From the IMG/VR virus record IMGVR_UViG_3300032223_003290: a DNA stretch of 64,000 nt; one strand, given 5' to 3'. The notes beneath the pieces were generated by a model that searched no databases, had not been told where the DNA came from, and worked only from the letters and a program-made list of their open reading frames with translations. The position numbers and the translations under genes were made by a program. Positions 32,408 to 58,902 of the stretch are shown here, piece by piece (the first letter of the stretch is position 1; every line of letters starts with the position of its first letter). This DNA is from an uncultured virus (IMG/VR IMGVR_UViG_3300032223_003290) (Duplodnaviria; Heunggongvirae; Uroviricota; Caudoviricetes).

Positions 32408-32435
32408 AAGGTGAAAAATAAAAAGTAATAGAAAT
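32408..32435 (+). promoter_or_regulatory. Candidate phage late promoter AAGG-N18-AGAAAT
   Basis: Copy of the recurring motif, intergenic, oriented towards 32518. Confidence 0.5.
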
Positions 32436-32517
32436 AACAAATTGAAAACAAAAAAATATAATTTGTTTTAGTTTATGTTTCTTCGAAGAAATAGATAAGG
32501 TATAAGGAGTACTTAAT

Positions 32518-33033
32518 ATGCCAACATATCCATCAAGTTTATACAAAGGTACAGCTAGATCAGCCAATGGTACTACCAACGATCCAGGTTCCTACCTTTG
32601 GAACAACTTAACAACATACCAAGAGCTTAAAGATACTGTCATTGGTTATGGAACCGGCCCAAATGACACAACTACAGTAACATTTAACTCTGCAGCAAAA
32701 TATCCAACTGACGTTAAATTTGGTGTAACTGGTTTAGGAACATCAACATACGCTGACTTTGATCTTGCACAAGCTAACTTGTCAACATTGATTTCAGCTT
32801 ATACAACTGCTGTCACATCAATTACAGCTACAGAGAAAACAATTGCTGTTGCATTCTCTGGAATTTCATACAACAATCTTCAATCCAAGATGGAAAAGGT
32901 TGCTTATGAATTGAATAGATTGATCGGCGATGTTACATTGGTTAATGCTGGTACTGCAGGTGGTGCAACAACTGCTGTAGGAAGATATCCATCTTCTTGG
33001 AACAGATACACCAACACTGCTGGTGGTTTATAA
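32518..33033 (+). CDS. Hypothetical protein, probably an abundant virion protein
   Basis: 171 aa, T/G/A-rich; AAGGAG RBS; followed by a strong terminator; codon style (TAC, AAC, GGT) like 58963..59985. Confidence 0.75.
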   Translation: MPTYPSSLYKGTARSANGTTNDPGSYLWNNLTTYQELKDTVIGYGTGPNDTTTVTFNSAAKYPTDVKFGVTGLGTSTYADFDLAQANLSTLISAYTTAVTSITATEKTIAVAFSGISYNNLQSKMEKVAYELNRLIGDVTLVNAGTAGGATTAVGRYPSSWNRYTNTAGGL

Positions 33034-33053
33034 TTAGATTTTCTAATTACAAC

Positions 33054-33088
33054 AAAAAAGAGGGGAGAAATATTCTCCCCTCTTTTTT
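33054..33088. terminator. Bidirectional intrinsic terminator
   Basis: AAAAAAGAGGGGAGAA-ATA-TTCTCCCCTCTTTTTT perfect inverted repeat between convergent genes. Confidence 0.9.
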
Positions 33089-33705
33089 TATCTCCAAATT
33101 GGCCCTTTTTTCAGTTTAGCCTTTAAAGCATCTATAGAAAGATGTTCTAATCTGGTTTGAACTAGCAATGTTTTTACAGAGTATCTATTTTTCATATAAG
33201 ATCCATTGTACGATCTATACATATTCCTATATGCTAATCTAGTGGGTAATTTACCTCTAGAATAACGTTTTAAGTGAACTGATAACTCTTTAGTACCAAT
33301 TGCTATATTCCCATCAACAGTACGTGGATTATAAACTCTTTTGGGGTCATAATACCTAATTGATGGTCTGACTAGCTGCATCATACCAATACAGGGTCTA
33401 CTAGTCATCTTGAACTCGCTCTCAACATATGCGGTAGAAGCTAACACATATGGGTCTACTTTGAATTTTGCAGAATACTTCATGATAGCATCTGTAATCT
33501 TCTTTATGTAGGATTGCGAATATCTCGGTTGAACAAGTTTGATAAATTTAGAAATTTTTTCTTTTTTATCAAGTTTATCCTTTGAGTTTGATACGGAAAT
33601 TTTCGCATCTTGACGGTATGGTTTCGGTGAATGAATAACTCCAATGTTTAATAACAAAAGAATTATGGAAACAATCACCTGACTGATTACCTCAATCATT
33701 GTCAT
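33088..33705 (-). CDS. Lytic transglycosylase (SLT domain) with N-terminal membrane anchor
   Basis: VDPYVLASTAYVES (catalytic Glu), GMMQL, NIAIG, YNG motifs; hydrophobic N-terminus; AAGGAG RBS. Confidence 0.85.
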   Translation of the reverse strand: MTMIEVISQVIVSIILLLLNIGVIHSPKPYRQDAKISVSNSKDKLDKKEKISKFIKLVQPRYSQSYIKKITDAIMKYSAKFKVDPYVLASTAYVESEFKMTSRPCIGMMQLVRPSIRYYDPKRVYNPRTVDGNIAIGTKELSVHLKRYSRGKLPTRLAYRNMYRSYNGSYMKNRYSVKTLLVQTRLEHLSIDALKAKLKKGPIWR

Positions 33706-33753
33706 CTCCTTTTCATTTCAAGCAGGAAATCACTTGAAATCTTTTATATAGTA

Positions 33754-33782
33754 ATTATAGTGTTTAATTTTTGGAAATACAA
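33754..33782 (-). promoter_or_regulatory. Sigma70-like promoter for the SLT gene
   Basis: Minus strand TTGTAT-N17-TATAAT upstream of 33705. Confidence 0.5.
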
Positions 33783-34085
33783 ATGAACCCAATCGACTCA
33801 ATGAAATCTTATCATGCAGCTCCACAAAATGCACCTAAGCAAAAAATCAATCTTATGCGTCAGTGCGAGGTTTGTATGAGTCAAGTACCTATGAATAGTG
33901 GCTTGTTTTTCTACTTACCACAATACGCAGAATACGCTGATTGGCAAAAAGACCGTGTGGGCAAAAAAGTTTGTATTTCGTGTTTACCTCCTCAAATTCA
34001 AAAACAACTTACTGAAAAAACAGTCAACGCTTCAAAGAATGATTATATTGACAATCTTTTCGCAGAGATCTTTAAGGCAGACTAA
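33783..34085 (+). CDS. Small CxxC/CxxC zinc-finger-like protein
   Basis: CEVC...CISC; ATG at 33783 preferred to TTG at 33771; stop overlaps next start (TAATG). Confidence 0.65.
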   Translation: MNPIDSMKSYHAAPQNAPKQKINLMRQCEVCMSQVPMNSGLFFYLPQYAEYADWQKDRVGKKVCISCLPPQIQKQLTEKTVNASKNDYIDNLFAEIFKAD

Positions 34086-34360
34086 TGAATTATAGCAAAT
34101 TAGCTCAATTAGTGCAAGATTTAGAACAAAATGGGTTCGAAGATGAAGCCACAAATCTTGCTGACGCTATGGAAACAGAAGCTAGCCCAGATGTAATCTT
34201 TTCAAATGCAGATATTATTTCTGAAATGGACGATATTATAGGTGGAGTTTTGTATCATTTAAATATTGATAACAACCTAAAATTTGTCGGAAATAATTTA
34301 TCACCACAAAGTATAAACGATATCCAAAATAGTTTGGCAGGAATAGTTAAATCAGCTTAA
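34085..34360 (+). CDS. Small acidic protein with KLAQ/LE..G...EA motif (candidate head-internal protein)
   Basis: MNYSKLAQLVQDLEQNGFEDEATNLADAME; motif shared with 36166 and 50958. Confidence 0.7.
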   Translation: MNYSKLAQLVQDLEQNGFEDEATNLADAMETEASPDVIFSNADIISEMDDIIGGVLYHLNIDNNLKFVGNNLSPQSINDIQNSLAGIVKSA

Positions 34361-34587
34361 TGCCATTTTTGCTTTTTATAATCTTCTAAACAAGATTCTG
34401 GAACTTCCTTTATTCTACAATCTTCACAATTGGTAGAAAGATGCATAACATAATCATCCCAGGTTTTTAATTCTTTCTTTTCTGGACGGGTAAATTGAAA
34501 TCTATGTTTCAAACCAGGCAAATATAATTCATCTTTTAAGAAAAAACTTTGCCCACACTTTTCACAATAACAAGATACAGTTGGCAT
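34357..34587 (-). CDS. Small zinc-finger-like protein (76 aa)
   Basis: MPTVSCYCEKCG...CEDC; start moved to ATG 34587, which overlaps the upstream stop (TAATG). Confidence 0.65.
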   Translation of the reverse strand: MPTVSCYCEKCGQSFFLKDELYLPGLKHRFQFTRPEKKELKTWDDYVMHLSTNCEDCRIKEVPESCLEDYKKQKWH

Positions 34588-35042
34588 TACTTTACAAAAT
34601 CCGTGAGTGCTTTTCCGGTAAATAACTGAACTATAGTAAGAAAAGCAATAACACCACCAAGAGTCCACATAATTTTATTGATTGTATTCTTAACATCCCA
34701 ATAAATCTTTTTCATACTCTTGATATCTTCTTTAACTTCAGCAATATCAGAGCCAAAATCAGATATTTGAGCAGTGTATTCTAGGGTTGCTTCTTCGATA
34801 TCAGCATCCCTTTTAACTTGAGCTGATTGGAAATTTTCAAACAATTTTTCTAAAACTGCATAGTCTTTGGACAATTTTTTAAATTCATCTTCGGATAATA
34901 TTTTTAAGGATTCTACACGAGTCAATATTTCTTTTTGATTAGTTAAAATATTGATAAGAGCCATATTAAAATCTAAATATGCCTCTGTCTGTGCTTTATA
35001 AACGCTCTTAAGTTGTTCTAATCCGACTTCGTTTTCTTGCAT
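34587..35042 (-). CDS. Coiled-coil protein with C-terminal transmembrane helix
   Basis: Heptad-rich body, then IMWTLGGVIAFLTIVQLF; GGAGG RBS favours ATG at 35042. Confidence 0.7.
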   Translation of the reverse strand: MQENEVGLEQLKSVYKAQTEAYLDFNMALINILTNQKEILTRVESLKILSEDEFKKLSKDYAVLEKLFENFQSAQVKRDADIEEATLEYTAQISDFGSDIAEVKEDIKSMKKIYWDVKNTINKIMWTLGGVIAFLTIVQLFTGKALTDFVK

Positions 35043-35054
35043 TTCACCCTCCAA

Positions 35055-35381
35055 TTAAAGAGCAGAGAGAACTTGTCGTAATTTCTTTGAGGATTCGGAA
35101 AGTTTTGTAATTGTATCGTCAACAGCTTCAAGAATAAATAATTTGCTTTTTGTCCCGTGATTTATATCTTTTTGCTTCAAACTGTATCTTTGGTCTCTGA
35201 ATTGAATATATGATGCTGATAAATAATTTTTGATATCAAGGCCTTTAATATGTAGTTCTTTTGCCTTGTCATTCATTATTAAATTTTTATCATCATCCAA
35301 AATATAAGCTGCACAACTAAAAGTATCAAGTAGACCACAAAGTAACATTGATGGGTTCTTACACTCTACATTTTGCTCCAT
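35055..35381 (-). CDS. Hypothetical protein (weak PAS-like N-terminus)
   Basis: LLDTFSCAAYILDDDKNLIMNDKAKEL resembles the start of a PAS fold; sits in an operon. Confidence 0.6.
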   Translation of the reverse strand: MEQNVECKNPSMLLCGLLDTFSCAAYILDDDKNLIMNDKAKELHIKGLDIKNYLSASYIQFRDQRYSLKQKDINHGTKSKLFILEAVDDTITKLSESSKKLRQVLSAL

Positions 35382-35391
35382 TGTTTATGCC

Positions 35392-36159
35392 TCAAAGAAA
35401 TATTCTATTGTAATATTCTTCAAAAACTTGGTAGCTTTCCTCGTCTTCCATTACAATAAAAATGTTTTTAATATTTGAATCTTTTGCTGATTGAAGGTAA
35501 GTTTTGATAGCTGCTAATTGTACTCTTGCTGTGTCATTAATATCATGAGTTCCACAATCTGCAGGAATCACAACTACATTTCTAGCCTGCTCTTCATCTG
35601 CTAATAATAAAGCTTTTCTCATTGCAGACTTTAGATCAACCTCATTCACAAGTCTACTTTCTCCAGCTACTGTAGCATGATAAACCTTTTGAGCTTTAAC
35701 TTTTGAATTTTCTCCGCCATTTGAGGTTATATAAACTGTACCCATATTGATTGGTTTTTGAAATTGATCTAATTCGTTTTGAATAATGCCACGAGACATT
35801 CTATTCAATAATGGATCATCAATAGTTAGACTTATATTTGTTGGGTGAATTAATACATCAGCTTTGACAAGATATGGATTGTCTATTTTATGAATACTAA
35901 TTTTTGTTTTAGGCTCAGGTATAGGATCTGGTTCTGGAATTGGTTCAGGTTCAGGTTCAGGTGTAGATTGTTCCACTTTTTGTTTAAAAGTGCATAAATT
36001 AGGATTGCCTTGACAATCATTTCCCCAAGATTCTACTACAACATCAAGTTGAACTTTGGTGAGAAATGAAGATAATCTTGGATTAGATAATACTTTTACT
36101 AAACAATCACCAGACGATAAATAAACAGGGCATAATTCTGACATATTGTTTTTATACAA
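35392..36159 (-). CDS. Macrodomain protein (divergent) with Cys-rich N-terminus and Pro-Glu linker
   Basis: KADVLIHPTN, GTVYIT..G, KVYHATV, ALLLAD....RNVVVIPADCGT, IKNIFIV pattern follows the macro fold. Confidence 0.75.
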   Translation of the reverse strand: MYKNNMSELCPVYLSSGDCLVKVLSNPRLSSFLTKVQLDVVVESWGNDCQGNPNLCTFKQKVEQSTPEPEPEPIPEPDPIPEPKTKISIHKIDNPYLVKADVLIHPTNISLTIDDPLLNRMSRGIIQNELDQFQKPINMGTVYITSNGGENSKVKAQKVYHATVAGESRLVNEVDLKSAMRKALLLADEEQARNVVVIPADCGTHDINDTARVQLAAIKTYLQSAKDSNIKNIFIVMEDEESYQVFEEYYNRIFL

Positions 36160-36165
36160 TATGGC

Positions 36166-36924
36166 TTATTTCACATTATATTTGGTAGAAAAATCTTTAT
36201 ATTTAGGATCTTTGACAATTTTAGAATAGCTATCTGGATCTTGGTATTTTAAATTTTGTATTGCTGACTTAACTGCAGAATTTATCATTGATTTTAATTG
36301 TGAAGAATAATCGGGAACTGAATTTGCTATTTGAAAAAATTCATTCAATCTTGGTTCCCATTCATAAATCGGTCGTCTTGTCAGTAAATTGGCAACTTGA
36401 GCAGTAATTGTTCCGGGTAAAACATTATTTACGAACTCAGATTTACGTTCATCTGATACTCCAGGAGCTAAATTTTGAGCTATTAATTTTCCAAAACTTG
36501 CAAAACCAACATTCGAAAGGTTCATAAAATTAGAAGCTTGTAATCCTGCAGATAATTGCATTTCAGCTAAATATTTTCTACCCTTTTCAGTTTTACTAAG
36601 TTCAGCAAATTGAGCTGGAGTTAATGTTGGCAAAATACCTGGACCTGTTGGACCAATATCTGATCTAAAAGGAGCATTTTTATCATACATATCACCACCA
36701 GCAAACATTGAACCAGCAGCTGTATCACTCATATTTGAATACATAGCATCAATAAGAGGATTACCAGTTCTAGGCTGCCCAGTAGGTTCATAGTCTCCTG
36801 GCAATGTTGGAAGCATGTTTTGAGATGTTTTTATTAAATTATCAAGCTTATCAGATAAAGCATATTTGCCTTTCTGATCAAGTAATTGTGCAATTTTAAA
36901 TAATTTATTTAGGTTGGATGCCAT
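36166..36924 (-). CDS. Hypothetical protein with KIAQLLDQKG...SDKLD motif (candidate head-internal protein)
   Basis: 252 aa; N-terminal motif shared with 34085 and 50958. Confidence 0.75.
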   Translation of the reverse strand: MASNLNKLFKIAQLLDQKGKYALSDKLDNLIKTSQNMLPTLPGDYEPTGQPRTGNPLIDAMYSNMSDTAAGSMFAGGDMYDKNAPFRSDIGPTGPGILPTLTPAQFAELSKTEKGRKYLAEMQLSAGLQASNFMNLSNVGFASFGKLIAQNLAPGVSDERKSEFVNNVLPGTITAQVANLLTRRPIYEWEPRLNEFFQIANSVPDYSSQLKSMINSAVKSAIQNLKYQDPDSYSKIVKDPKYKDFSTKYNVK

Positions 36925-37579
36925 TTTTTTCCAAGTATTGACTTAATGGTGCAATTGATTTCTCGTATTGGGATAAGATATTTGTCATTTGAAGTTGCTT
37001 TTCTGCATTAGGTAAGTCTTTTTTAGAAGCAACTTTTGCCATATCTGCTAAAACATCTTCTATTGTCCATTTAGGAATAATTTTTATCAATTCATCTGCA
37101 TCTTTTTTATCAGATGTTTTTATAAATCTTGAAGTTGAATTTGCAGTTGATGGATTGAGTTTTTCTCTCATTGATTGATATCTATTTGAAGATTCTGGAA
37201 CAGATATATTTTGAACCCCAGACACAGGCTCACCACTTACTAAATCTTTTAAATTTTTAGGAGGATTTTTCTTAAAATCTTCTATAGCTTTAAGTAGTTT
37301 AGGATCTGTCATTTCAAAAGCACCTTGCGAGTGCTTTGTATCGTTGTATCCTCTATTTTTATCCGTTTCTAAAGCATGATAAAAGGCTGATGGACTATAT
37401 CTATCAGTCCAACCTGCAAGCAATGAAGCTAAATAACTTAAATTTTGCTTCATATTAGCTTGATTGAAAATATCATCACTTGAGTCACCAGATATCAATT
37501 TCATGATATTTCTTACATCACCAAGATTTTCCCAAGGAAATTTTACTGGTGTAGCGGCTACTTTTCTAAATTTACTCAT
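36905..37579 (-). CDS. Hypothetical protein (candidate head-internal protein)
   Basis: 224 aa; begins MSKFRKVAA; coupled to neighbours. Confidence 0.7.
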   Translation of the reverse strand: MSKFRKVAATPVKFPWENLGDVRNIMKLISGDSSDDIFNQANMKQNLSYLASLLAGWTDRYSPSAFYHALETDKNRGYNDTKHSQGAFEMTDPKLLKAIEDFKKNPPKNLKDLVSGEPVSGVQNISVPESSNRYQSMREKLNPSTANSTSRFIKTSDKKDADELIKIIPKWTIEDVLADMAKVASKKDLPNAEKQLQMTNILSQYEKSIAPLSQYLEKNGIQPK

Positions 37580-38499
37580 CTAGCCAATCCTCTCATTATT
37601 GCTGAAAAAAAGTTCCATGTATCCTTGTCTCTTTCATATTGATCATCTATTTCTTTTTGCTGAAATTTATCCATATCTTCTTGTTCATATTGTTTGTGAT
37701 ATTTATGTGATTTTGCTTTATCAACAATAGATTGTAAATCTTTCTCAATCAATTTTTCAGGAAAATCATCTAAATCTATGTCTGAATGAGAAATAATATC
37801 ATATAGTGAATATAAGCTTATACCAAAAGTTTTAATTTCAAATTTTGTTGGTACAAATGTCTCAGGATCTTTGTCTTTATCTAAGATATATTTTTGTAAA
37901 GGAGCATTTCCATACAAATAAGCATATTTTTTTTTCAATATTGGTTCAATTTCTTTATCCAAAGATATCATTTTGATGATCCAATCCATCAAAGAACCAT
38001 TGAACCATCCGGCAAATACCTTATATTTTTCAGATGGCAATAATGTTTCATTAATCAATTTTTGATATTCATTAGTACTATCAATAGAATGAGAAGTAGC
38101 TGTAGGAGTTCTGCTATCAGCTCTGTCAAAGCCCTTATCAGAACCAGCATATGGATTATAATCAGTAAGCCAAGTGTTCAATCCAGTTGGAGAATGTTCA
38201 ACTCGCCATTTTGCACGTTTAGAAATTTCATTAAAAAATGTTGGGTCTACATCACTAAACTGTAAATTACCGCTTGTTCTAAAAGGGCTTACAACGACAT
38301 TGCTAAAACCTGCAGTAGTAAATTGATTCATCCAATCATCTGCAGTTTCTGGACCTGCAACAGTAATAAAAGTATCCTCAGATCCTAAAGAATCTTTAGC
38401 TTTAATCATAAAAGCTTGATTACGAGCTGCTTGTTTGTAAATAGTGTTATTTTCTTCAGTTAATTTTACTGCAAGCTTTATGATATCTTTATTTTCCAT
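37576..38499 (-). CDS. Hypothetical protein (candidate head-internal protein)
   Basis: 307 aa; begins MENKDIIKLA...YKQAA; preceded by the candidate late promoter. Confidence 0.7.
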   Translation of the reverse strand: MENKDIIKLAVKLTEENNTIYKQAARNQAFMIKAKDSLGSEDTFITVAGPETADDWMNQFTTAGFSNVVVSPFRTSGNLQFSDVDPTFFNEISKRAKWRVEHSPTGLNTWLTDYNPYAGSDKGFDRADSRTPTATSHSIDSTNEYQKLINETLLPSEKYKVFAGWFNGSLMDWIIKMISLDKEIEPILKKKYAYLYGNAPLQKYILDKDKDPETFVPTKFEIKTFGISLYSLYDIISHSDIDLDDFPEKLIEKDLQSIVDKAKSHKYHKQYEQEDMDKFQQKEIDDQYERDKDTWNFFSAIMRGLAR

Positions 38500-38507
38500 A
38501 AATATAA

Positions 38508-38535
38508 ATTACTGAATATAATTTCTTACACCCTC
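38508..38535 (-). promoter_or_regulatory. Candidate phage late promoter GAGG-N18-AGTAAT
   Basis: Motif copy just upstream of ATG 38499. Confidence 0.45.
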
Positions 38536-39887: not shown

Positions 39888-39918
39888 AAATTTCCCTCCT
39901 AAATATTATACAGATAGG

Positions 39919-39946
39919 TAGGATATATGCTAGTCCGCAAATAATA
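39919..39946 (+). promoter_or_regulatory. Candidate phage late promoter TAGG-N18-ATAATA
   Basis: Motif copy upstream of 39972; a divergent TATAAT (minus strand, 39905-39910) faces clpX. Confidence 0.45.
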
Positions 39947-39971
39947 TTATAATCGCTTTGGAGGAAAAAAT

Positions 39972-40205
39972 ATGGCAACAGTTGATAACAATTCACAAAA
40001 TAGAGGCAATGGAAAGTGGAAAATTCAAACCTACAATCCATCCGCACTTATAGGACCAATCGAGGGTGTTCTTATAGTGAATAAAGATTTCTACACTATT
40101 TACAAAGATGAAAAAATGGTGATATGTTTATTCAATGTTCCTAGCCAGAATGTAGCTTTTGCATATAACGAAATTCACGTACAAAATTTAGATATAAGTA
40201 AATAA
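39972..40205 (+). CDS. Hypothetical protein
   Basis: 77 aa; GGAGG RBS. Confidence 0.7.
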   Translation: MATVDNNSQNRGNGKWKIQTYNPSALIGPIEGVLIVNKDFYTIYKDEKMVICLFNVPSQNVAFAYNEIHVQNLDISK

Positions 40206-41076: not shown

Positions 41077-41645
41077 AAGCATATTTAACATTTGCTAGAA
41101 GAAAAGAAGATGATGTGCATATGTTAGGTATTGAAAATCCATCCAACATTTGCGACATCTTGTTCGTGGGCCTTAGATCTGGACAACCTATTATTCCAGT
41201 AATTTCAAATAATAAAATTGTAGCTTTTTATATACTAGATATAGAAGGTAATTTATATCAAATAGTGGGCGATATTGATTACTTATTTGAACTAAATCAA
41301 TTGACAGATTTATCTTTAAAAAATTTACAAAAATATAATTTAATAAAATATTTCGTCTCTCATGTATTCGAATGTTTATCTATACAAGAGGCAAAATATA
41401 ATGCTGAAATCTTTGAATTATTAGAAGAAAAAATTTTTTATAATTTATTGCATATTGAAATCGAATTATTTAAGATAAAACAAGCAATAATAAAAGAAAT
41501 TAAAAAATCAGATCTATCAAATGCGTTGAAAGATAGATTATTATTTTGCTTGAAACAAACTAAGAATCCTAATAATAAGATACTGAATAAAAAAATTGAT
41601 GTAGATTTATCAGGGTATTCTATTTACATCAACACCCTTATTTAA
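41073..41645 (+). CDS. Hypothetical protein
   Basis: 190 aa; very AT-rich; coupled to the previous gene. Confidence 0.65.
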   Translation: MKAYLTFARRKEDDVHMLGIENPSNICDILFVGLRSGQPIIPVISNNKIVAFYILDIEGNLYQIVGDIDYLFELNQLTDLSLKNLQKYNLIKYFVSHVFECLSIQEAKYNAEIFELLEEKIFYNLLHIEIELFKIKQAIIKEIKKSDLSNALKDRLLFCLKQTKNPNNKILNKKIDVDLSGYSIYINTLI

Positions 41646-42107
41646 TAATCTCTGTACTTCTGCTTCATTAAATCTTTGGGCGGTTTCATTACATTTAGGA
41701 CAACAATTTTCACTCTTCTGCCACACTCTCTTCCCATCTCTTATTCCGGGCATTGAAAGAATAGGTAAGGTTTCAATTACACAATGACATCTATCGTGGA
41801 GTGGTGGTAATTGAATCAATGCTGTGGGATCATTTTCAATTTTCTGCACATTATCTTGTAAATCTTCAGGTGTAAAATTATCATCCCCAGAAGGATCATC
41901 TATAGTAATTTCAAGAGGATTAGGAGGACCAGATTCATCTCCCATCTGTTCATCTCTTTCTTCAGGCAAATCTTCTTCTGGTAATTCTAATGGAGTTTCA
42001 GCTGTTTGGGTCTCATCTGCATCTTCATCAGCAAATAAGTTGAATTTACGATCTCCAGAAATAGGAAGACCAAACATATTATATTTTTTAGCAAGTCGAT
42101 ACCACAT
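41610..42107 (-). CDS. MuF/SPP1 gp7-like minor head protein fragment with acidic N-terminus
   Basis: PPLHDRCHC resembles the PPxHPxCRC MuF signature; W.....CCPKC follows; begins MWYRLAK. Confidence 0.6.
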   Translation of the reverse strand: MWYRLAKKYNMFGLPISGDRKFNLFADEDADETQTAETPLELPEEDLPEERDEQMGDESGPPNPLEITIDDPSGDDNFTPEDLQDNVQKIENDPTALIQLPPLHDRCHCVIETLPILSMPGIRDGKRVWQKSENCCPKCNETAQRFNEAEVQRLLNKGVDVNRIP

Positions 42108-42115
42108 AAATCTTT

Positions 42116-42143
42116 TATTCTCTTTTTCTTTTATAACAGCCTT
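42116..42143 (-). promoter_or_regulatory. Candidate phage late promoter AAGG-N18-AGAATA
   Basis: Best-consensus copy, 8 nt upstream of ATG 42107. Confidence 0.55.
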
Positions 42144-43133: not shown

Positions 43134-43161
43134 TAGGGCTGAAGAAGCATAAAAAAGAAAA
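43134..43161 (+). promoter_or_regulatory. Candidate phage late promoter TAGG-N18-AGAAAA
   Basis: Motif copy upstream of phoH and the 1941-aa virion gene. Confidence 0.4.
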
Positions 43162-43208: not shown

Positions 43209-44576
43209 TTGGCAAAGCATATTTACATCATCGACACTTGTGTCTTACTTCACGATCCCCTTGCTCTTTATAAATTCGGTGACAATGATATTTATATCCC
43301 ATTAGCTGTCATCGATGATTTGGACGACATCAAGACAAGAAAAGAAAATGTTGGATGGTCAGCCAGACAAGTATTTAGAAATTTAGAGAATTATTCACTT
43401 CAAGATCTTCTTAAAGGCGTAAAAATAAACGAACTTGGTGGAAGATTGTTTGTCTACAATACAGAGTCTCCTTTACAAAAAAACGAAAGACCTAATATTG
43501 TCAAAGTACATTCAGACAACGCTATTATTGAGTGTTGTTTAGCCCTAAAATCTGCAAATCCTAGAAAGAAAGTAGCCATTATTACAAAGGATACTGGACT
43601 TCGTATTCGTGCTATAACTTGGGGTTGTGCAGCTGAAAACTATAGAGCTGATCAACTTAGCGATGAAATCTATACAGGTATTAGAAAGTTTGAATTAAAT
43701 AATGAAGCAGACTGGGCCTTACTTTGGTCTGATTATGAAATTGAACTAAAGAAATTATCTGAAGAAACGCTCACTAAACTTGGCGATATTTGTCCTAACG
43801 AATTTATTTTATTTCATTACGGAGATAAAATCTGTCCAGCTATTTACAGAAGAGGCATTTTAAAAGTTCTTAAAGAAAAATCAAATGCTAAAGAAGTAAA
43901 GGGATATTCTGGTGTTCAAGGAAAAAATTTAGAGCAAAAATGTGCTTTAGAAATTCTTGCTGATCTTACTATTCCTCTTGTAACTCTTTCGGGTCCAGCA
44001 GGTACAGGTAAATCTTTCTTAGCTCTTGCAGCTGCTTTACAACTTATTAATGAAGGTATATACGACAAGATTGTTGTTATGAAGCCTCTTATTGCTGTGG
44101 GTGGAAAAGACATTGGTGCTCTTCCTGGTGATAAGTTTGACAAAATCTCTGCTTGGTTAGGTCCAATTAAAGACAATATTGATCAAATCTTAGGTTCTAA
44201 ATCACTTTCTGCTAACAATATGTTTGAAGAAATGGTTAGAGATGGAATTATTGAAGTGGAAGCTATGGCCTTTATTCAAGGTAGATCCATTCCTAGATCT
44301 ATCATTATTCTTGATGAAGCTGAAAACATTTCACCTAGAGAAGCAAGGATGGTAGTAGAAAGATGCGGAAAAGACAGTAAAGTCATCCTTCTTGGCGATC
44401 TTTCTCAGGTCGAAAATCCTTATCTTGATGCAAAATCCAATGGTCTTTCCCATGCTATATCTGGTGGAAAGAAAAGTGATTTAGTCGCTTCTGTAACATT
44501 AAGTAAAGTCGAAAGATCTGAATTGGCTGCTGTGGCTAGTGAAATTTTCAATAGACCAGAAGCAAGAAGAAATTAG
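43209..44576 (+). CDS. phoH: PhoH-family ATPase with N-terminal PIN domain
   Basis: IIDTCVLLHDP (PIN), TKD..LR; Walker A GPAGTGKS; IGALPG; GRS; IILDEAEN; GD.SQ; TTG start with GAGGAG RBS. Confidence 0.92.
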   Translation: MAKHIYIIDTCVLLHDPLALYKFGDNDIYIPLAVIDDLDDIKTRKENVGWSARQVFRNLENYSLQDLLKGVKINELGGRLFVYNTESPLQKNERPNIVKVHSDNAIIECCLALKSANPRKKVAIITKDTGLRIRAITWGCAAENYRADQLSDEIYTGIRKFELNNEADWALLWSDYEIELKKLSEETLTKLGDICPNEFILFHYGDKICPAIYRRGILKVLKEKSNAKEVKGYSGVQGKNLEQKCALEILADLTIPLVTLSGPAGTGKSFLALAAALQLINEGIYDKIVVMKPLIAVGGKDIGALPGDKFDKISAWLGPIKDNIDQILGSKSLSANNMFEEMVRDGIIEVEAMAFIQGRSIPRSIIILDEAENISPREARMVVERCGKDSKVILLGDLSQVENPYLDAKSNGLSHAISGGKKSDLVASVTLSKVERSELAAVASEIFNRPEARRN

Positions 44577-50418: not shown

Positions 50419-50446
50419 AAGGTATAACCCTTAGCTATTTAAAAAT
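50419..50446 (+). promoter_or_regulatory. Candidate phage late promoter AAGG-N18-AAAAAT
   Basis: Motif copy upstream of 50480. Confidence 0.45.
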
Positions 50447-50479: not shown

Positions 50480-50956
50480 ATGCAAAATTTAGAGTCCCAG
50501 CTACATACACTTTTAGAAGATATTGCACCCGATGTTCATTCACACGAAGAGCAGGCTAAAATTATTGCCTTAGCTTCAGCAACTATTTCTAAAAAATTCA
50601 ATGCAAGACGTTTTGCAAAATCTGATGGCAGAGTTGTAGAATCACAAATGACTGATGCAATTTTAGTTGCTATGTCTACATTATCTTCTTGGGACAATGA
50701 AGATGATGAAATTTTTGATGCTAGAGGACTTTCACATTCACAATTGATCAGAAGAGTAGCAAATACTGCAAAGCCAAATTGGGGACAAATGGATATCTTA
50801 AATCCTGATGCAATTGAAGAAACATTCTCTTTTGAAGAAGAAGATGAACCAGATTCTGAAACTAAAATAGAAAATGCACAACAAACCTCAGAAGCATTTA
50901 ATACTCCAGGAAGAGGCAGACATAGATCTGATTTTATTTCAGCTCCAATAAGATAA
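50480..50956 (+). CDS. Acidic hypothetical protein (candidate head-internal protein)
   Basis: 158 aa; contains FNARRFAK and IRRVAN; GAGAG upstream. Confidence 0.72.
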   Translation: MQNLESQLHTLLEDIAPDVHSHEEQAKIIALASATISKKFNARRFAKSDGRVVESQMTDAILVAMSTLSSWDNEDDEIFDARGLSHSQLIRRVANTAKPNWGQMDILNPDAIEETFSFEEEDEPDSETKIENAQQTSEAFNTPGRGRHRSDFISAPIR

Positions 50957-51539: not shown

Positions 51540-51543
51540 AAAA

Positions 51544-51572
51544 TAGCCAATTTCGCTTGTTTTCGGTATAAT
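51544..51572 (+). promoter_or_regulatory. Sigma70-like promoter for gyrB-gyrA
   Basis: TAGCCA-N17-TATAAT. Confidence 0.6.
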
Positions 51573-51603
51573 GCTGTGGTATCTTAAATCACAGCATTTT
51601 TTT
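51570..51603 (+). terminator. Intrinsic terminator after 50958..51539
   Basis: AATGCTGTGGT-atcttaa-ATCACAGCATT stem (one G-U pair) running into a T-tract. Confidence 0.75.
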
Positions 51604-51637
51604 ATGCCTGTATTCGGAATTAAACGAAGGAAAGCAA

Positions 51638-53764: not shown

Positions 53765-56283
53765 TGGCAAGAAATCTCAAAGTCAAGAATGTTGCTGAAG
53801 TATCAAACTTGACAGATACAATTCTTGAGAAGAATTTTGTTGATCTTATTGATGAACGATTTACCAACTATGCTTTTGCAGTTATGGAAGATCGTGCATT
53901 GCCAGATGCTCGTGATGGCCTAAAGCCATCACAGCGTCGAACCCTTGTTGCTATGGATGATCTTAAACTCCGTGCATCAGGTAAAACTAAGAAATGTGCA
54001 AAAATTTGTGGTGATGTTTCTGGAAATTATCACCCACACGGAGAAGCAGTAGTTTATCCTACCCTTGTTCGTATGGCTCAATCTTGGTCATTGCGTTATC
54101 CACTTATCACCCCTCAGGGTAACTTTGGTTCTCCTGCTCCTGAAGATAAGCCAGCTGCAATGCGTTATACAGAGGCTAAACTTTCATCTTTTGGTGATTT
54201 GATGGTTAATGAATTATCTGATCAGGTAGTTCGTTATCAAGCAAACTACAACGATGAAATGATGGAGCCTACTGTTCTTCCATCACTATTCCCTAACTTA
54301 ATTGTTAATGGATGTAGTGGAATTGCAGTTGGATGGGCTACAAATATGGCACCTCACAATTTACGTGAAGTTGCTAAGTTGATTGATGCCTATATCAAAA
54401 ATCCAGATATCACAACTGACGAAGCATTGCAGATTGTCCCAGGTCCAGACTTTCCAATTCGTTGTAAAGTTTTAGGCTTGGATGGGATTCGTTCATATTT
54501 CACCAATGGACGTGGAACTGTTCAACTTGAAGGTTATTACGACATTGTTCAAGAGCGAAATCAGGAAATTATCAAGGTAAGTGAATTGCCTTATGGTAGT
54601 AGTGCTGAAAGCTTCTGTCGTGAAATCAAAGACCTTGTTGAAAGTAAGAAGATTGAAGGTATCACTGGCCTCAAGAACCTAACAAGCAAGAAGGGTATGG
54701 ATGTTCGTATCTGGCTTCATAAGAGTGCTAGTTCTCAAGTTGTATTGAATCAATTGCTGAAGCGTACATCTCTTCGAACAAGTTTTTCTGTCAATTCCAC
54801 TGTACTTTTGGATGGCAAGAAGGTTGTTGAAAATGTATCTATTCTTCAATTAGTAAAGGCATTTGTAGATCATCGTAAAGAAGTTCTGACAAATAAATTT
54901 ACTGCTGAACACGCAAAGAATAGCTCACGTATCCATATTCTTGAGGGTCTTCTTGGTATCACTGACAAGATTGATGCAGTTATTAAGCTTGTTCGTAATG
55001 CTGACAATAAAGAAGAAGCAGCAAAAGAACTTATTGCTCAAAAATTTGTTTCATCCCAAGAACAGGCTGATGCAGTATTACGAATTACTCTTGGAAACCT
55101 TACTAAACTTGATACCCGTGCATTACAGGATGAGTTTGATAAGTTGACAAAGCGCAATGAATGGTTGGCTGCACAATTAGCTTCAGAAAAGAAAATGCTC
55201 AATCTTATTTCCAAAGAACAGCTTGACCTTGCAGAAAAGTTTGGAGATGATCGACGTTCTGAAATTCTTGCTCTTGAAGATGAAATTTCCTACGAAGATT
55301 TGATCAAAGAAGAAGATATCATTGTTTCCCTCACAAAAGATGGATATATCAAGCGTGTTCCTCTTGATACATTCAGAACCCAAAACCGTGGTGGTAAGGG
55401 TGTAATTGGAGTCAAGGGACGTGAAGAAGATGAAGCATCTGATATCTTCAGCGGAACAACACATGACTTATTCTTGTTCTTTACAAATCAAGGTAATTTG
55501 TTAAAGAAGAAAGGTTATGAAATTCCTCTTGCTTCTCGTACTTCAAAGGGCACACACCTTAATAATCTCTTGAATTTGACTGAAGGTGAGACTGTATCTT
55601 CAACAATTACACTCAAGTCTTTGGATGTTGATGGCTACTTCATTATGGTCACCAATAAGGGATTAATTAAGCGTTCTGAAATCCGTGAATACAATACAAG
55701 TTTGCGTAAACGTGGATTGAAGGCAATTACTCTCACTGAAGGCGATAACTTAAACTTTGTGATGACTACTGATGGAAACAAGGATGTAATGCTTGTAACT
55801 TCATTGGGTATGGCTGTTCGATACAATGAAACATTAGTTCGTTGCATTGGAAAGAATGGTCAAGGCAGTCGTTCAATGCTTCTAAGACCTGAAGATAGTA
55901 TTGCAGCTATGCTTGCTATAGATGCAGAGTCTGATCCTTCTGTACTGGTAATCACTGAATTGGGCAAGGGTAAGAAGACTTGGGCATCAGAATACCGTTC
56001 AACTGCTGGACGCTCTGTAAAAGGCCAAAGAACTATCAACCAAACAAAGCGTGAACAAACAGGAAAAATTGTTTCTGCACTTGCCATCAATGACAGTGAT
56101 GACATTTTGGTTTTGACAAGCAAAGGCAAAATGATGCGTTGTAATTTGGATAGTTTACGCAACAAATCCAAGGCGACTCAAGCCACTACAATTGTTGCTT
56201 TAGATGATAATGATTCGGTACAAACTGCAGTAGTTGTTCCTAATGTAGGCGAATCAGAGTCAGAAGAAGAATTTACAGAATAA
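53764..56283 (+). CDS. gyrA: DNA gyrase subunit A
   Basis: RALPDARDGLKP, YHPHG, AAMRYTE active site, GIAVGWATN, GyrA-box QNRGGKG, C-terminal pinwheel repeats, acidic tail; TAATG overlap with gyrB. Confidence 0.97.
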   Translation: MARNLKVKNVAEVSNLTDTILEKNFVDLIDERFTNYAFAVMEDRALPDARDGLKPSQRRTLVAMDDLKLRASGKTKKCAKICGDVSGNYHPHGEAVVYPTLVRMAQSWSLRYPLITPQGNFGSPAPEDKPAAMRYTEAKLSSFGDLMVNELSDQVVRYQANYNDEMMEPTVLPSLFPNLIVNGCSGIAVGWATNMAPHNLREVAKLIDAYIKNPDITTDEALQIVPGPDFPIRCKVLGLDGIRSYFTNGRGTVQLEGYYDIVQERNQEIIKVSELPYGSSAESFCREIKDLVESKKIEGITGLKNLTSKKGMDVRIWLHKSASSQVVLNQLLKRTSLRTSFSVNSTVLLDGKKVVENVSILQLVKAFVDHRKEVLTNKFTAEHAKNSSRIHILEGLLGITDKIDAVIKLVRNADNKEEAAKELIAQKFVSSQEQADAVLRITLGNLTKLDTRALQDEFDKLTKRNEWLAAQLASEKKMLNLISKEQLDLAEKFGDDRRSEILALEDEISYEDLIKEEDIIVSLTKDGYIKRVPLDTFRTQNRGGKGVIGVKGREEDEASDIFSGTTHDLFLFFTNQGNLLKKKGYEIPLASRTSKGTHLNNLLNLTEGETVSSTITLKSLDVDGYFIMVTNKGLIKRSEIREYNTSLRKRGLKAITLTEGDNLNFVMTTDGNKDVMLVTSLGMAVRYNETLVRCIGKNGQGSRSMLLRPEDSIAAMLAIDAESDPSVLVITELGKGKKTWASEYRSTAGRSVKGQRTINQTKREQTGKIVSALAINDSDDILVLTSKGKMMRCNLDSLRNKSKATQATTIVALDDNDSVQTAVVVPNVGESESEEEFTE
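56246..56273 (+). promoter_or_regulatory. Candidate phage late promoter TAGG-N18-AGAATT inside the gyrA 3' end
   Basis: Motif copy ending 22 nt upstream of the structural gene at 56296. Confidence 0.45.
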
Positions 56284-56295
56284 TAGGTGTAAATT

Positions 56296-56682
56296 ATGGC
56301 TAACGCATTGTTTGATAGTGGAAGAGATGGTTTTTTAAATGGTCAATTCAATTGGTCGGCAGATAACTTTAAAGTAATTTTGCTTTCAAATCAATATACT
56401 GTTGACTTAATCAACCATACCACGACAGCAAACATTGGCGGAACAGTAGCTATATCAGGAGTTATGACTACCATAACTCCTGGTAAGGGCGTGGCAGATG
56501 CAAACGACTTAACTATATCTGGTGTTGCTGGAACTACTGTAACTCAATACATAATTTTCCATGATACGTCAAAAAAACTAATTGCTTATTTTGACACATC
56601 ATCAAATCTTCCAGTAACTCCCAATGGAGGGAACATTACCCTTCAATGGAGTAATACAGATAACAGAATTTTCAAGCTCTAG
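56296..56682 (+). CDS. Phage minor tail/structural protein
   Basis: MANALFD.GR..FL.G..NW..D.FKV.L...GVADA.D...LIAYFD...LPVTPNGGNI...W....RIFKL pattern typical of small tail-region proteins. Confidence 0.75.
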   Translation: MANALFDSGRDGFLNGQFNWSADNFKVILLSNQYTVDLINHTTTANIGGTVAISGVMTTITPGKGVADANDLTISGVAGTTVTQYIIFHDTSKKLIAYFDTSSNLPVTPNGGNITLQWSNTDNRIFKL

Positions 56683-56702
56683 ATTTTCTAGAGCTTTTTT
56701 TA

Positions 56703-56731
56703 TAGGTAAAAGTGGTCTTGAAAAGAGAATT
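56703..56731 (+). promoter_or_regulatory. Candidate phage late promoter TAGG-N19-AGAATT
   Basis: Motif copy with a 19-nt spacer upstream of 56752. Confidence 0.4.
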
Positions 56732-56751
56732 TTAACAATTGAGACCACAAT

Positions 56752-57591
56752 ATGAACAACGCAACCATCAAAACTTGGATCAATAGAGCATATTTTATAG
56801 AAGCTAGTCATGTGAATGTTTTTGTAGCTTCTTCCACTGGTGGAACTGGTGGAACAGGCGGTACTGGTGGAACAGGCGGTACTGGTGGTACAGGGGGAAC
56901 AGGAGGCACAGGTGGGACTGGTGCTGGATCAGGTTCTACTGTGCTTTATTTCTCAGTTCCAAATTCCTCTTCATATCCAGGGACAGGATATACCATTTAT
57001 GACTTAAGCTCCTATGGAAATAATGGATATCTTTATAATGGTACAAATTATGTAGACAATGGTAATGGAGACTATTTATTCTTTGATGGAACAAATAACT
57101 ATGTAGGAATAAATACAACAGTAACTTCAAACACTGGAAATGTAAATATTACTGCTTGGGTAAATTCTTCAGTCGTTTCTCAATCAGGTCAAATGATTGT
57201 GTATGTTGGAAGTGAACAAAATCTCAATGGTTATGGATTAGCAATTAACAAAGAATATGTTACTTCTGGAAATGTTTACATCAGGTATGGAAATGTTAGA
57301 TGGTACAACTCTGGAATAGCACTCAGTTCAAATAGCTGGAATCATTTATCAGTCAATATAAACAGTGATACTTCGAACGATCTTTATGTAAATGGAATAT
57401 TAAGATACTCTGGGCCTATTTCTGCAATTAATACTCCTACTTTGCATACTGAAATTGGCAGAAGTGATTATACCACTTACGCTTATCCAAGATATTTGAA
57501 TGGGAAAGTGTCAGAAGTAATCATTTCAAGTGGCATTCTTACAACAAGCCAAATTTTGTCACACTATAACTCTACAAAGAACAACTACTAA
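56752..57591 (+). CDS. LamG-like lectin domain protein with (GGT)9 linker
   Basis: SYPGTG..IYDLS.YGN, FDGTNNY, WNHL...LYVNG, LTTSQILSHYNSTK; Gly-Gly-Thr x9 after a 27-aa leader. Confidence 0.82.
   Translation: MNNATIKTWINRAYFIEASHVNVFVASSTGGTGGTGGTGGTGGTGGTGGTGGTGGTGAGSGSTVLYFSVPNSSSYPGTGYTIYDLSSYGNNGYLYNGTNYVDNGNGDYLFFDGTNNYVGINTTVTSNTGNVNITAWVNSSVVSQSGQMIVYVGSEQNLNGYGLAINKEYVTSGNVYIRYGNVRWYNSGIALSSNSWNHLSVNINSDTSNDLYVNGILRYSGPISAINTPTLHTEIGRSDYTTYAYPRYLNGKVSEVIISSGILTTSQILSHYNSTKNNY
56839..56919 (+). repeat. 9-bp tandem repeat encoding (Gly-Gly-Thr)9
   Basis: GGNGGNACW x9 counted in the DNA. Confidence 0.9.
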
Positions 57592-57604
57592 ATGGGAATT
57601 CACT

Positions 57605-57922
57605 ATGCTTAATAATGTATATTTATCAGAAACAACTTTAAAAATTTATGCTCACTTAAAAGATGAAAGTGGCAGTGGTGTTACTGCAGATAGTTTGACA
57701 TTTTATATCACTGAGCCTGGTGGAATTGGCTATACATATTATTACGGTGTTGGTTCAGGAAGTGGAAATTCCCAACCTGTTCAATCTACAGACACAGTTG
57801 GTATTTATTATAAACAATGGACACCTTCTAGAGTAGGCACATATAAATATTCTTGGAAGGCTTCGGGATCGATAAACACAACTTCTAAAAGTTTTTTTGA
57901 AGTTAAAGATTATAGGTGGTAA
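57605..57922 (+). CDS. Small beta-rich (Ig-like) structural protein
   Basis: MLNNVYL...GIYYKQWTPSRVGTYKYSW.ASG; start moved to ATG 57605 to avoid a long overlap. Confidence 0.65.
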   Translation: MLNNVYLSETTLKIYAHLKDESGSGVTADSLTFYITEPGGIGYTYYYGVGSGSGNSQPVQSTDTVGIYYKQWTPSRVGTYKYSWKASGSINTTSKSFFEVKDYRW

Positions 57923-58873
57923 ATGGCTTTCCCAGGCATACTTACTAGGGGTGAATTTTCAACAGGACTTAATACAAAAAGTATCTGTGTCAATGGAAAT
58001 TACCTCATTGTTGAAGAGTGTAATATAAATCAAGTTCAAGATCACAATTTGAACAATTATATTCAAGGTGGCCCAGCTTATGCAATTTATAATCTTGGAG
58101 CAAAAAAATATGAAGGTTCAATCTCTTTTCCATTAAGAATTGATCAAGAAGGAAATATAGAAACCGCAGCTAAAATTTTGCTACAATATGCAGCCAAGCC
58201 TATGTCTACATTGACAATTGACACTCATCATTTACTTTCTAGCAAAACTACAACGGTTCTAGATCCAGGAACAGACAATAATAAGAATCTTTCGTTAGAT
58301 TCTGTTGTGATAAGTAATTTGACCATATCTTGCAGTGAAAATAATAAAGTTATTGTCAGATTAGATGTAACAGGAATGGTTGATCAAGAAAAAGAGTCTG
58401 AATTTAATTTTAGCACAGATTTTATTTTAGGAAGAGCTTTGACTTGGGCAGACTGTAATGCTAGTAGAAAAGAATCATCCATGAGAACAACTTCGAGTAT
58501 AGAAGTTAAAATTGAAAATGAATTAATAACTCCTGTGTTCTTAATGCCTTACTTATCATATCCTGGTGCTGGAGTAACTGAATCTAAAGATCAAATAGAA
58601 TTGATTGGAGTTCAGTCTACAAAATGGAGTGGCACTTTTGCAGAAGTTATCAGAAATGGAGCTGATTTGAATACGTTTATTCATGGTGGTCTTATGCATG
58701 ATTCTAATTTAGTGCTTCAATTTGGTCCTGTTTCAGCTACATTTCCAAACCCAGTTTTCAAAATTGGGCAAACTCCATTGACAGCTCAGATAATAAGGAG
58801 AACTACAGAATGGGCTGGAATAAATAAACCTGATGCTTCTATGAACGATAATGGATTATTCACTTTTATTTAA
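57923..58873 (+). CDS. Tail tube-like protein (paralogue 1)
   Basis: Beta-rich 316 aa; IVE...N....IQG.P....G....GSISFP segment aligns by eye with 58963..59985. Confidence 0.55.
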   Translation: MAFPGILTRGEFSTGLNTKSICVNGNYLIVEECNINQVQDHNLNNYIQGGPAYAIYNLGAKKYEGSISFPLRIDQEGNIETAAKILLQYAAKPMSTLTIDTHHLLSSKTTTVLDPGTDNNKNLSLDSVVISNLTISCSENNKVIVRLDVTGMVDQEKESEFNFSTDFILGRALTWADCNASRKESSMRTTSSIEVKIENELITPVFLMPYLSYPGAGVTESKDQIELIGVQSTKWSGTFAEVIRNGADLNTFIHGGLMHDSNLVLQFGPVSATFPNPVFKIGQTPLTAQIIRRTTEWAGINKPDASMNDNGLFTFI

Positions 58874-58874
58874 A

Positions 58875-58902
58875 AAGGTAAGCATCAATAAAATAAAGAA
58901 TA
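58875..58902 (+). promoter_or_regulatory. Candidate phage late promoter AAGG-N18-AGAATA
   Basis: Best-consensus copy upstream of 58963. Confidence 0.55.

What the first reader, a model, noticed from the sequence alone, without database searches (positions are those of the whole stretch)
32408..58902. Recurrent AGG-N18-A(G)AAT motif: candidate new late-promoter class
Seen, each oriented towards a nearby start: AAGG-18-AGAAAT (32408,+), GAGG-18-AGTAAT (38535,-), TAGG-18-ATAATA (39919,+), AAGG-18-AGAATA (42143,-), TAGG-18-AGAAAA (43134,+), AAGG-18-AAAAAT (50419,+), TAGG-18-AGAATT (56246,+, inside the gyrA end), TAGG-19-AGAATT (56703,+), AAGG-18-AGAATA (58875,+). Most precede structural or candidate head genes, whereas gyrB, clpX and the SLT gene have TATAAT boxes. 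Established: this is neither sigma70 TTGACA/TATAAT nor the T4 gp55 TATAAATA box. Inference: a bipartite promoter read by a phage-encoded sigma factor or RNA polymerase located outside the window.
Basis: partly seen in the sequence, partly recalled or inferred. Interest (0 to 1): 0.75.

Follow-up and report, generated by a model that had tools for sequence, protein, structure and literature searches.

The report
Jumbo-phage SigH-type promoter class
This uncultured giant phage places a fixed two-box signal (AGG, 19 bases, GAA) in front of many genes, head and tail genes among them; it matches the promoters read by bacterial sigma-H and is likely read by the phage family's own sigma-H-like factor, probably later in infection, so it is a known kind of switch built from an unusual part.

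Summary
The strict form AGG-N18-AGAA[AT] (= AGG-N19-GAA) is enriched in non-coding DNA before genes. It occurs in 4 of 17 such window segments against 0.14 in shuffles, and in 6-14 segments against 0.3-1.2 in each of five relatives, always peaking at 18. Orthologous upstream regions keep both boxes while the spacer drifts. Eight sites hold (56703 as a one-base-longer variant); 56246 inside gyrA does not. It is not a new class: it matches published C. difficile SigH promoters (AGG-N18/19-GAA(A)T). All five relatives encode a 227-233 aa SigH-like sigma; the 75-kb own contig has no sigma. Sites precede the prohead-protease gene and, two to three genes upstream, the capsid gene in all five relatives, and a tail-tube-fold gene here. 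Replication genes mostly carry sigma-A-type or no sites. 'Late' and the identity of the sigma are inferred; nothing was measured. Many transcripts should be leaderless. The host may be Armatimonadota. The scan found this class before on other DNA.

The parts
32409..32435 (+). SigH-type promoter motif AGG-18-AGAAAT, AGG at -109 from the 171-aa gene 32518-33033 (function unassigned)
   Evidence: (9.9 bits; kept in 1 of 2 orthologue stretches, the other was cut short); one search finds an H-type site directly before the orthologue in G001, G002, G003, G005
38508..38534 (-). SigH-type motif AGG-18-AGTAAT, AGG at -35 from ATG of gene 37576-38499: predicted leaderless transcript
   Evidence: 7.7 bits; kept at -35/-37 in 2 of 2 orthologues at 52% and 31% protein identity
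39920..39946 (+). SigH-type motif AGG-18-ATAATA, AGG at -52 from gene 39972-40205, which has its own GGAGG ribosome site; overlaps the divergent clpX TATAAT promoter
   Evidence: 8.8 bits; 8 of 9 orthologues
42116..42142 (-). SigH-type motif AGG-18-AGAATA, AGG at -35 from ATG of gene 41610-42107: predicted leaderless transcript
   Evidence: 9.6 bits; 5 of 9 best hits, some of which are likely paralogues in other contexts
43135..43161 (+). SigH-type motif AGG-18-AGAAAA, AGG at -74 from the PIN-PhoH (PhoH2-like) gene 43209-44576, which is followed by a 1941-aa gene
   Evidence: 7.9 bits; 8 of 10 orthologues
50420..50446 (+). SigH-type motif AGG-18-AAAAAT, AGG at -60 from gene 50480-50956 (unassigned)
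   Evidence: 10.7 bits; 11 of 11 orthologues down to 42% protein identity
56247..56273 (+). match inside the 3' end of gyrA; probably a chance product of the acidic coding tail, not counted as a member
   Evidence: 5.8 bits; 0 of 4 orthologues reach 6 bits; absent in L005
56704..56731 (+). one-base-longer variant AGG-N20-GAAT just after a terminator-like hairpin and T run, AGG at -48 from gene 56752-57591 (PHROG virion structural protein hit)
   Evidence: 6.0 bits here; 8.6-11.5 bits in 4 of 4 orthologues
58876..58902 (+). best-scoring SigH-type motif AGG-18-AGAATA, AGG at -87 from gene 58963-59985
   Evidence: 14.2 bits; 5 of 5 orthologues
58963..59985 (+). gene directly behind the best site; predicted tail-tube fold (T5 tail tube/pb6-like)
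   Evidence: pLDDT 66.6, pTM 0.69; Foldseek E 4.7e-8 to T5 tail tube 9iny_A, TM-score about 0.4
   Evidence: (10.7 bits; 5 of 5 orthologues)
32283..32309 (-). extra weaker candidate: AAG-18-GTAAAA at -71 from gene 29248-32238, head of the long leftward cluster of large genes
   Evidence: (9.8 bits; the G001 orthologue has a 10.1-bit site)
51567..51572 (+). contrasting sigma-A-type -10 box (GGTATAAT) before gyrB
   Evidence: (11.3 bits on the sigma-A matrix)

Best explanation
The motif is a conserved two-box element (AGG, 19 bases, GAA then an A/T-rich run) of the sigma-H promoter type, likely read by host RNA polymerase carrying the phage family's own SigH-like sigma factor, and it probably drives the non-early genes, head and tail genes among them. 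Shown by sequence: fixed spacing, strand bias, conservation, the match to SigH promoters, and the SigH-like gene in five relatives. Inferred mechanism: early and replication genes use host sigma-A-type promoters (TTGc...TGnTATAAT). The SigH-like gene lies among the clamp-loader, sliding-clamp and purZ-like genes and is made during that phase. The sigma then redirects RNA polymerase: region 4.2 would read AGG and region 2 would read GAA. Transcription would start about 33-35 nt after the A of AGG, so sites at -34/-35 would give leaderless mRNAs (38534 and 42142 here).
For: Enrichment over shuffles and antisense, with a sharp peak at 18, in the window and in five relatives (G002 14 of 241 vs 1.15; G001 12 of 180 vs 1.05). 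De novo EM on G001, G003 and G004 without the window recovers two classes, TTGc-TGgTAtaaT and aAGG-18-agAA; seeds with 15-22 nt spacers give a consensus at the same spacing. Boxes are kept while the spacer drifts (31 ortholog pairs: spacer 37% identical, GAA columns 81%). C. difficile SigH promoters are AGG-N18/19-GAA(A)T (counted by eye). The SigH-like sigma is present in 5 of 5 relatives: best NCBIfam hits are SigH models at E 1e-30 to 1e-33, the only PDB hit is a sigma-H (3mzy), and the region 4.2 helix K-x-[IV]-D-N-A-L-x-R is shared with Listeria SigH. H-type sites precede the prohead protease and the capsid operon in all five; structural cells 26 H / 4 A / 3 none of 33, replication-type cells 11 H / 29 A / 27 none of 67. 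AGG peaks at -34/-35 from ATG, and only 14 of 64 such genes have a ribosome-site-like word. Bacillus phage G has a 48% identical capsid but no SigH-like sigma, and shows the pattern in 1 of 35 upstream regions.
Against: No transcript, TSS or timing data were obtained. A second sigma (184-196 aa) is also present in 5 of 5 relatives, and three of them carry one or two more, so the reader of the motif is not uniquely fixed. The SigH-like proteins score about 105-117 bits against SigH equivalog cut-offs of 208-295 and carry a one-residue insertion in region 2.3. The window's own contig has no sigma gene; the link rests on relatives (G005: 51 orthologues, median 90% identity). H-type sites also precede non-structural genes: PhoH2 here, nrdB and primase in G001, and the sigma genes in G002. 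The -10 box is degenerate (GAA 60, TAA 19, AAA 17 of 118 non-hairpin sites). Terminator hairpins (AGG..CCT-AAAA) give false hits (6 of 124). The cells are not independent (shared operons, related genomes), and the box-conservation figure is partly circular because sites were picked by the matrix. Phage G is a single outgroup.
Confidence: 0.72

Rival explanations
1. The sites are promoters, but they are read by a host sigma-H (or another host alternative sigma), tying phage gene expression to the host's transition phase; the phage copy is a booster.
For: The motif matches Bacillota SigH promoters closely, so any host SigH could read it. The GyrB search returned mostly Bacillota at 37-49% identity, though that list is not diagnostic of the host.
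Against: The phage family keeps its own SigH-like gene in 5 of 5 relatives and in 39 IMG/VR loci. The spacer is rigid at 19, whereas host SigH promoters mix 18 and 19. The host hint points to Armatimonadota. The F. ginsengisoli supplement has no 'sigH' or 'sporulation' label, which is weak, label-only evidence.
Confidence: 0.1
2. The sites are read by the second conserved phage sigma (184-196 aa, unassigned sigma-70 family), which lies near the terminase gene, and the SigH-like protein does something else.
For: The second sigma is present in 5 of 5 relatives. No third bipartite class appeared in 188 residual upstream regions of G001, G003, G004 and G005, so this sigma has no promoter class of its own yet.
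Against: It does not resemble SigH, whereas the motif is SigH-type and a SigH-like protein with the conserved region 4.2 helix is at hand.
Confidence: 0.1
3. The sites are a real SigH-type class but a general 'non-early' (middle plus late) class, not a late class. This is compatible with the best explanation except on timing.
For: Sites also lie before PhoH2, nrdB, primase, HNH nucleases and the sigma genes of G002.
Against: Structural genes are dominated by H-type sites and replication genes by sigma-A-type or no sites.
Confidence: 0.4
4. Chance or by-product: AGG comes from stop codons (TAG-G) or ribosome-site remnants, and the second box from AT-rich DNA.
For: No excess over whole sequences. 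Several window sites start at a stop codon; 29 of 56 strict sites lie at or within 5 nt of the previous gene end. Site 56246 does look like chance.
Against: Single-spacing peak in six genomes, sense bias, and excess over shuffles. Conservation with a drifting spacer. AGG lies 35-109 nt from the start, with separate ribosome sites where there is a leader. 27 of 56 strict sites lie further than 5 nt from the previous gene.
Confidence: 0.03

Closest known systems
SigH (Spo0H)-dependent promoters of Bacillota (C. difficile set in PMC7438776, Table 3)
   Same: AGG upstream box, GAA(A/T)T downstream box, 18-19 nt between AGG and GAA. The A of AGG lies about 32-35 nt before the last base of the listed promoters, which I take to be the TSS; this matches the phage peak at -34/-35 from ATG.
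   Different: On a lytic jumbo phage; spacer rigid at 19; A after AGG weaker (A 47%, T 38%); -10 box more degenerate; often leaderless; SigH dependence untested.
Bacillota SigH sigma factor (TIGR02859, PRK08295; PDB 3mzy)
   Same: Best-matching family for the 227-233 aa phage protein; 31-34% identity to a Listeria SigH, with the region 4.2 helix and R-x3-[ST]-A of region 2.4 kept.
   Different: Below the equivalog cut-offs. It has a one-residue insertion in region 2.3, shared with unnamed metagenomic proteins that mostly group apart from the cellular-type ones in a quick tree. It is phage-borne, beside clamp-loader and sliding-clamp genes.
Phage-encoded sigma cascades: SPO1 gp28 (middle) and gp34 (late), T4 gp55
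   Same: A phage sigma re-aims host RNA polymerase to a second promoter class before non-early genes. The roles are as stated in passages of bioRxiv 10.1101/2021.11.12.468384.
   Different: Those sigmas belong to other groups and read other boxes (recalled). Here the sigma is SigH-like and the boxes are SigH-like.
Bacillus phage G (Donellivirus)
   Same: Related capsid (47.5%), portal and prohead protease; also carries sigma genes.
   Different: No SigH-like sigma; pattern in 1 of 35 upstream regions of its first 50 kb.

Membership tests
SigH (Spo0H)-type promoter | -35 box AGG(A) | tested here: met
   matrix A96 G72 G82, next base A47/T38; C. difficile table
SigH (Spo0H)-type promoter | -10 box GAA(A/T)T | tested here: met
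   matrix a61 G50 A79 A91; GAA in 60 of 118 non-hairpin sites, so degenerate
SigH (Spo0H)-type promoter | 18-19 nt between AGG and GAA | tested here: met
   peak at 19 in six genomes; of the first 13 rows of Table 3, 12 fit: 6 at 18 and 6 at 19, counted by eye
SigH (Spo0H)-type promoter | transcription start about 33-35 nt after the A of AGG | tested here: inconclusive
   indirect only: AGG peaks at -34/-35 from ATG in genes mostly without a ribosome site; no TSS data
SigH (Spo0H)-type promoter | transcription depends on a SigH protein | not testable with these tools
   needs in vitro transcription or genetics
Bacillota SigH protein (equivalog TIGR02859/PRK08295) | score above the curated cut-off | tested here: not met
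   about 105-117 bits vs 208-295: SigH-like, not filed as SigH
Bacillota SigH protein (equivalog TIGR02859/PRK08295) | SigH is the nearest sigma family, with the region 4.2 recognition helix conserved | tested here: met
Phage late promoter class | lies before virion genes rather than replication genes | tested here: met
   26 of 33 structural vs 11 of 67 replication-type cells, not independent; tail-tube fold; exceptions listed
Phage late promoter class | active only late in infection | not testable with these tools
   no time course available
sigma70/sigma-A promoter | TTGACA-like and TATAAT boxes | tested here: not met
   a separate class recovered by EM; the upstream segments holding the eight intergenic sites score 6.9 bits or less on the sigma-A matrix
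T4 gp55 late promoter | single TATAAATA box without a -35 box (consensus recalled) | tested here: not met
   two boxes at fixed spacing
Actinobacterial SigH/SigR (ECF) promoter | GGAA -35 with GTT -10 (consensus recalled) | tested here: not met
   downstream box is GAA, not GTT

The most novel reading that the evidence does not exclude
A widespread jumbo-phage family that infects Armatimonadota, not spore-formers, runs its virion programme with an old, phage-specific lineage of SigH-like sigma factors. The lineage is marked by a region-2 insertion and reads a rigid AGG-N19-GAA promoter, often into leaderless mRNAs. A factor known as the sporulation-entry sigma of Bacillota would thus serve as a phage late sigma far outside that phylum.
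Probability: 0.4. Interest if true: 0.62.

Novelty: new variant of a known kind. Interest (0 to 1): 0.4.

Why it matters
It gives a readable gene-expression programme for a family of uncultured 260-380 kb phages: sigma-A-type promoters for early and replication genes, and SigH-type promoters for head, tail and other non-early genes, with a named candidate sigma. The sigma-promoter pair can be tested in vitro without culturing the phage. It also widens where SigH-like factors act, if the Armatimonadota host holds. The principle (a phage sigma re-aiming host polymerase) is textbook, and the scan has met this class several times, so the gain is moderate.

Tried and rejected
RBS-remnant and stop-codon origins of AGG were rejected. 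Whole-sequence counts show no excess and are uninformative. Site 56246 was rejected as a member. No sigma gene was found in the own contig (21% complete). No match for the 316-aa gene in cultured phages. No cultured phage with a close SigH-like protein: 9 unannotated records at 26-34%. No RNA holder listed. Cluster look-ups of 20 SigH-like representatives gave an organism name for one cluster only (Priestia SigH), so whether Armatimonadota have SigH stays open. The single-sequence fold of the 316-aa protein failed (pLDDT 31). The Atlas gave only viral hypothetical clusters and weak tail-family leads for the 340-aa protein. A search for a third promoter class in 188 residual regions gave only terminator-like words. 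De novo EM on G002 alone was taken over by another motif, so the SigH-type class in G002 rests on the pattern test. A first gene caller biased by long structural genes was replaced. The tree is the quick version, on 124 of 150 representatives (180-270 aa kept) plus 6 own rows, and is used only loosely. The B. subtilis SigH R96/T100 genetics is recalled and was not found in the library, so it is not used as evidence.


Full report
Setting. The window is bases 1-64000 of a 75,237-base virus record, 35% GC, without tRNAs, estimated 21% complete. It holds very large leftward genes, Laminin-G-domain genes, SLT, ClpX-like, DnaJ, PhoH2, GyrB/GyrA, DnaK and others. Relatives found with two window proteins are IMG/VR contigs of up to 379 kb. 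I read five of them whole (G001-G005, 169-379 kb). G005 shares 51 genes with the own contig at a median 90% identity, G001 52 at 61%, G003 48 at 53%, G004 47 at 46% and G002 29 at 45%.

Observation. All nine sites are present as stated. I tested genes with at least 30 nt of upstream non-coding DNA (gene calls by my own script). The strict pattern AGG-18-AGAA[AT] occurs in 4 of 17 window segments, 6 of 53 in G005, 12 of 180 in G001, 6 of 137 in G003, 6 of 89 in G004 and 14 of 241 in G002. Shuffle means are 0.14, 0.30, 1.05, 0.65, 0.53 and 1.15, and antisense counts are 1, 1, 3, 2, 1 and 2. Among spacings 12-24 the peak is at 18 in every genome. Over whole sequences there is no excess.

De novo EM on 381 upstream segments of G001, G003 and G004, without the window, returned a sigma-A-like class first and aAGG-18-agAA second. 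Orthologous upstream regions keep the boxes while the spacer changes. In 31 pairs at up to 85% protein identity, the spacer is 37% identical and the GAA columns 81%; this figure is partly circular, as sites were chosen by the matrix. Seven sites are good members, 56703 is a one-base-longer variant, and 56246 inside gyrA is probably chance. Two more candidates with AAG lie at 62961-62987 and 32283-32309. One more, outside the window before the subtilase gene, is degenerate here but clear in 4 of 5 orthologues.

What it is. AGG-N18-AGAAT is AGG-N19-GAAT. I read passages and section 17 of PMC7438776. Its Table 3 lists C. difficile SigH promoters; of the first 13 rows, 12 read AGG-N18/19-GAA(A)T, six at each spacing (counted by eye). 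In four rows that I counted, the A of AGG lies 32-35 nt before the last base, which I take to be the TSS. In the phages AGG peaks at -34/-35 from ATG. Of 64 genes with AGG at -33 to -37, only 14 have a ribosome-site-like word, so these transcripts should begin at or next to the start codon. Leaderless sigma-A-type -10 boxes are also common in this family (TAnnnT peak at -12), so the host probably translates such mRNAs.

The candidate reader. Each of the five relatives encodes two to four sigma-70-family proteins. One, of 227-233 aa, is present in all five; its best NCBIfam matches are SigH models (E 1e-30 to 1e-33), at about 105-117 bits against cut-offs of 208-295. Its only PDB match is a sigma-H (3mzy). 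It is 31-34% identical to a Listeria SigH, keeps the region 4.2 helix and R-x3-[ST]-A, and has one extra residue in region 2.3. It recurs in 39 IMG/VR loci and 211 protein clusters. It lies directly beside the DnaX-like gene, with DnaN-, HolA- and PurZ-like genes nearby in G001. A second sigma of 184-196 aa is also in all five and has no promoter class assigned. The own contig has no sigma gene. Bacillus phage G, whose capsid is 47.5% identical, has no SigH-like sigma and shows the pattern in 1 of 35 upstream regions.

Which genes. Capsid, portal, prohead protease and terminase were identified in G001. An H-type site lies directly before the protease in all five relatives, and two to three genes before the capsid gene. 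Over G001-G004, 11 structural and 19 replication-type labels were set by me, the latter including the two sigma genes; the uncertain 171-aa gene was counted apart. The nearest upstream class was H in 26, A in 4 and none in 3 of 33 structural cells, and H in 11, A in 29 and none in 27 of 67 replication-type cells. These cells share operons and ancestry, so no p-value is given. In the window the best site precedes a gene with a predicted tail-tube fold and another precedes a PHROG virion protein hit. One site precedes PhoH2 and five precede unassigned genes. 'Late' is therefore likely for part of the class; 'non-early' is safer.

Host. G001 encodes a prepilin-type DUF1559 protein. Among its 120 best hits, the four that name an organism are all Armatimonadota, and homologues occur in 4 of 5 relatives. 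This is one gene family and only a hint. GyrB did not settle the host. I saw passages of PMC4072686 and PMC4959169 and 31 of 52 'sigma' places in the supplement of the former. No SigH label was found there, which does not show absence. PMC4959169 states that C. calidirosea cannot sporulate.

Prior knowledge. Ten library searches (listings and abstract starts only) showed no paper describing a phage SigH-like sigma with this promoter class; subscription journals and bioRxiv supplements were not visible. Passages of bioRxiv 10.1101/2021.11.12.468384 and PMC7162821 cover phage sigma factors in general. I reached the SigH reading. The scan's own notes, read later, report the same class on other phage DNA; they agree but are not independent support.

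Verdict. The feature is real. It is a SigH-type promoter class, likely read by a phage SigH-like sigma (0.72), and enriched before virion genes. It is a new variant of a known kind, interest 0.4.

Noticed in passing
G002:C1:1934-59503 (loci L063-L066): A further promoter-like class only in G002: AA[AT]TCCCC-N19-GGATAT, 28 copies (spacer 19 in 25 of 28), none in G000, G003, G004 or G005 and 2 in G001. GGATAT lies at -13 from ATG in 16 of 21 gene-linked copies (predicted leaderless). G002 also has an extra 232-aa sigma (G002:302715-303413) that is a candidate reader.
   Followed up: partly
window 60868-62559 (dnaK) upstream; G000 63198-64964 (UvsW-like) and 65692-66675 (dnaJ) upstream: TATAAT/TACAAT/TATACT boxes 6-7 nt before ATG with no ribosome site, kept in orthologues: leaderless sigma-A-type promoters. 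Family-wide TAnnnT peaks at -12 (87 of 1531 genes).
   Followed up: partly
G001:C1:142193-143086 (L050:12693-13586, -): Prepilin-type DUF1559/H-X9-DG protein whose four organism-named hits are Armatimonadota; homologues in 4 of 5 relatives: host hint.
   Followed up: partly
window 39888-39971 and 42108-42143: Divergent promoters overlap within 36-84 nt: the SigH-type site for one gene sits on top of the TATAAT-type promoter of the opposite gene (clpX; DnaJ-domain gene), which could let one polymerase block the other.
   Followed up: no
G001:C1:155000-179000 (L051-L052): Small-gene region with strong sigma-A-type promoters, each preceded about 85-110 nt upstream by a hairpin AGG..CCT followed by an A run (terminator-like); these hairpins mimic the SigH-type motif.
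   Followed up: no
G001 L054:6448-6978, L054:11476-12975, L054:2880-3461, L055:13247-13909; window 60479-60871: Host-like genes: NusG above its cut-off, GroEL, ClpP, superoxide dismutase and a PurZ-like gene in G001; a MerC-family gene next to dnaK in the window.
   Followed up: no
G001:C1:133441 and 137268 (L050): Two HNH endonuclease genes carry SigH-type sites (13.3 and 10.6 bits), while a third HNH gene has a sigma-A-type site.
   Followed up: no
window 7228-11317 and 24892-25566: A run of six tandem 220-230 aa genes plus one more copy; the two scanned carry a Laminin-G/concanavalin domain.
   Followed up: no
G003:C1 near 17000-17500 (L083): A palindrome TGGGGTGAT-N-ATCACCCCA before a small HTH gene; the same palindrome surfaced as a strong EM motif in the G001/G003/G004 set, perhaps a repressor operator.
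   Followed up: no
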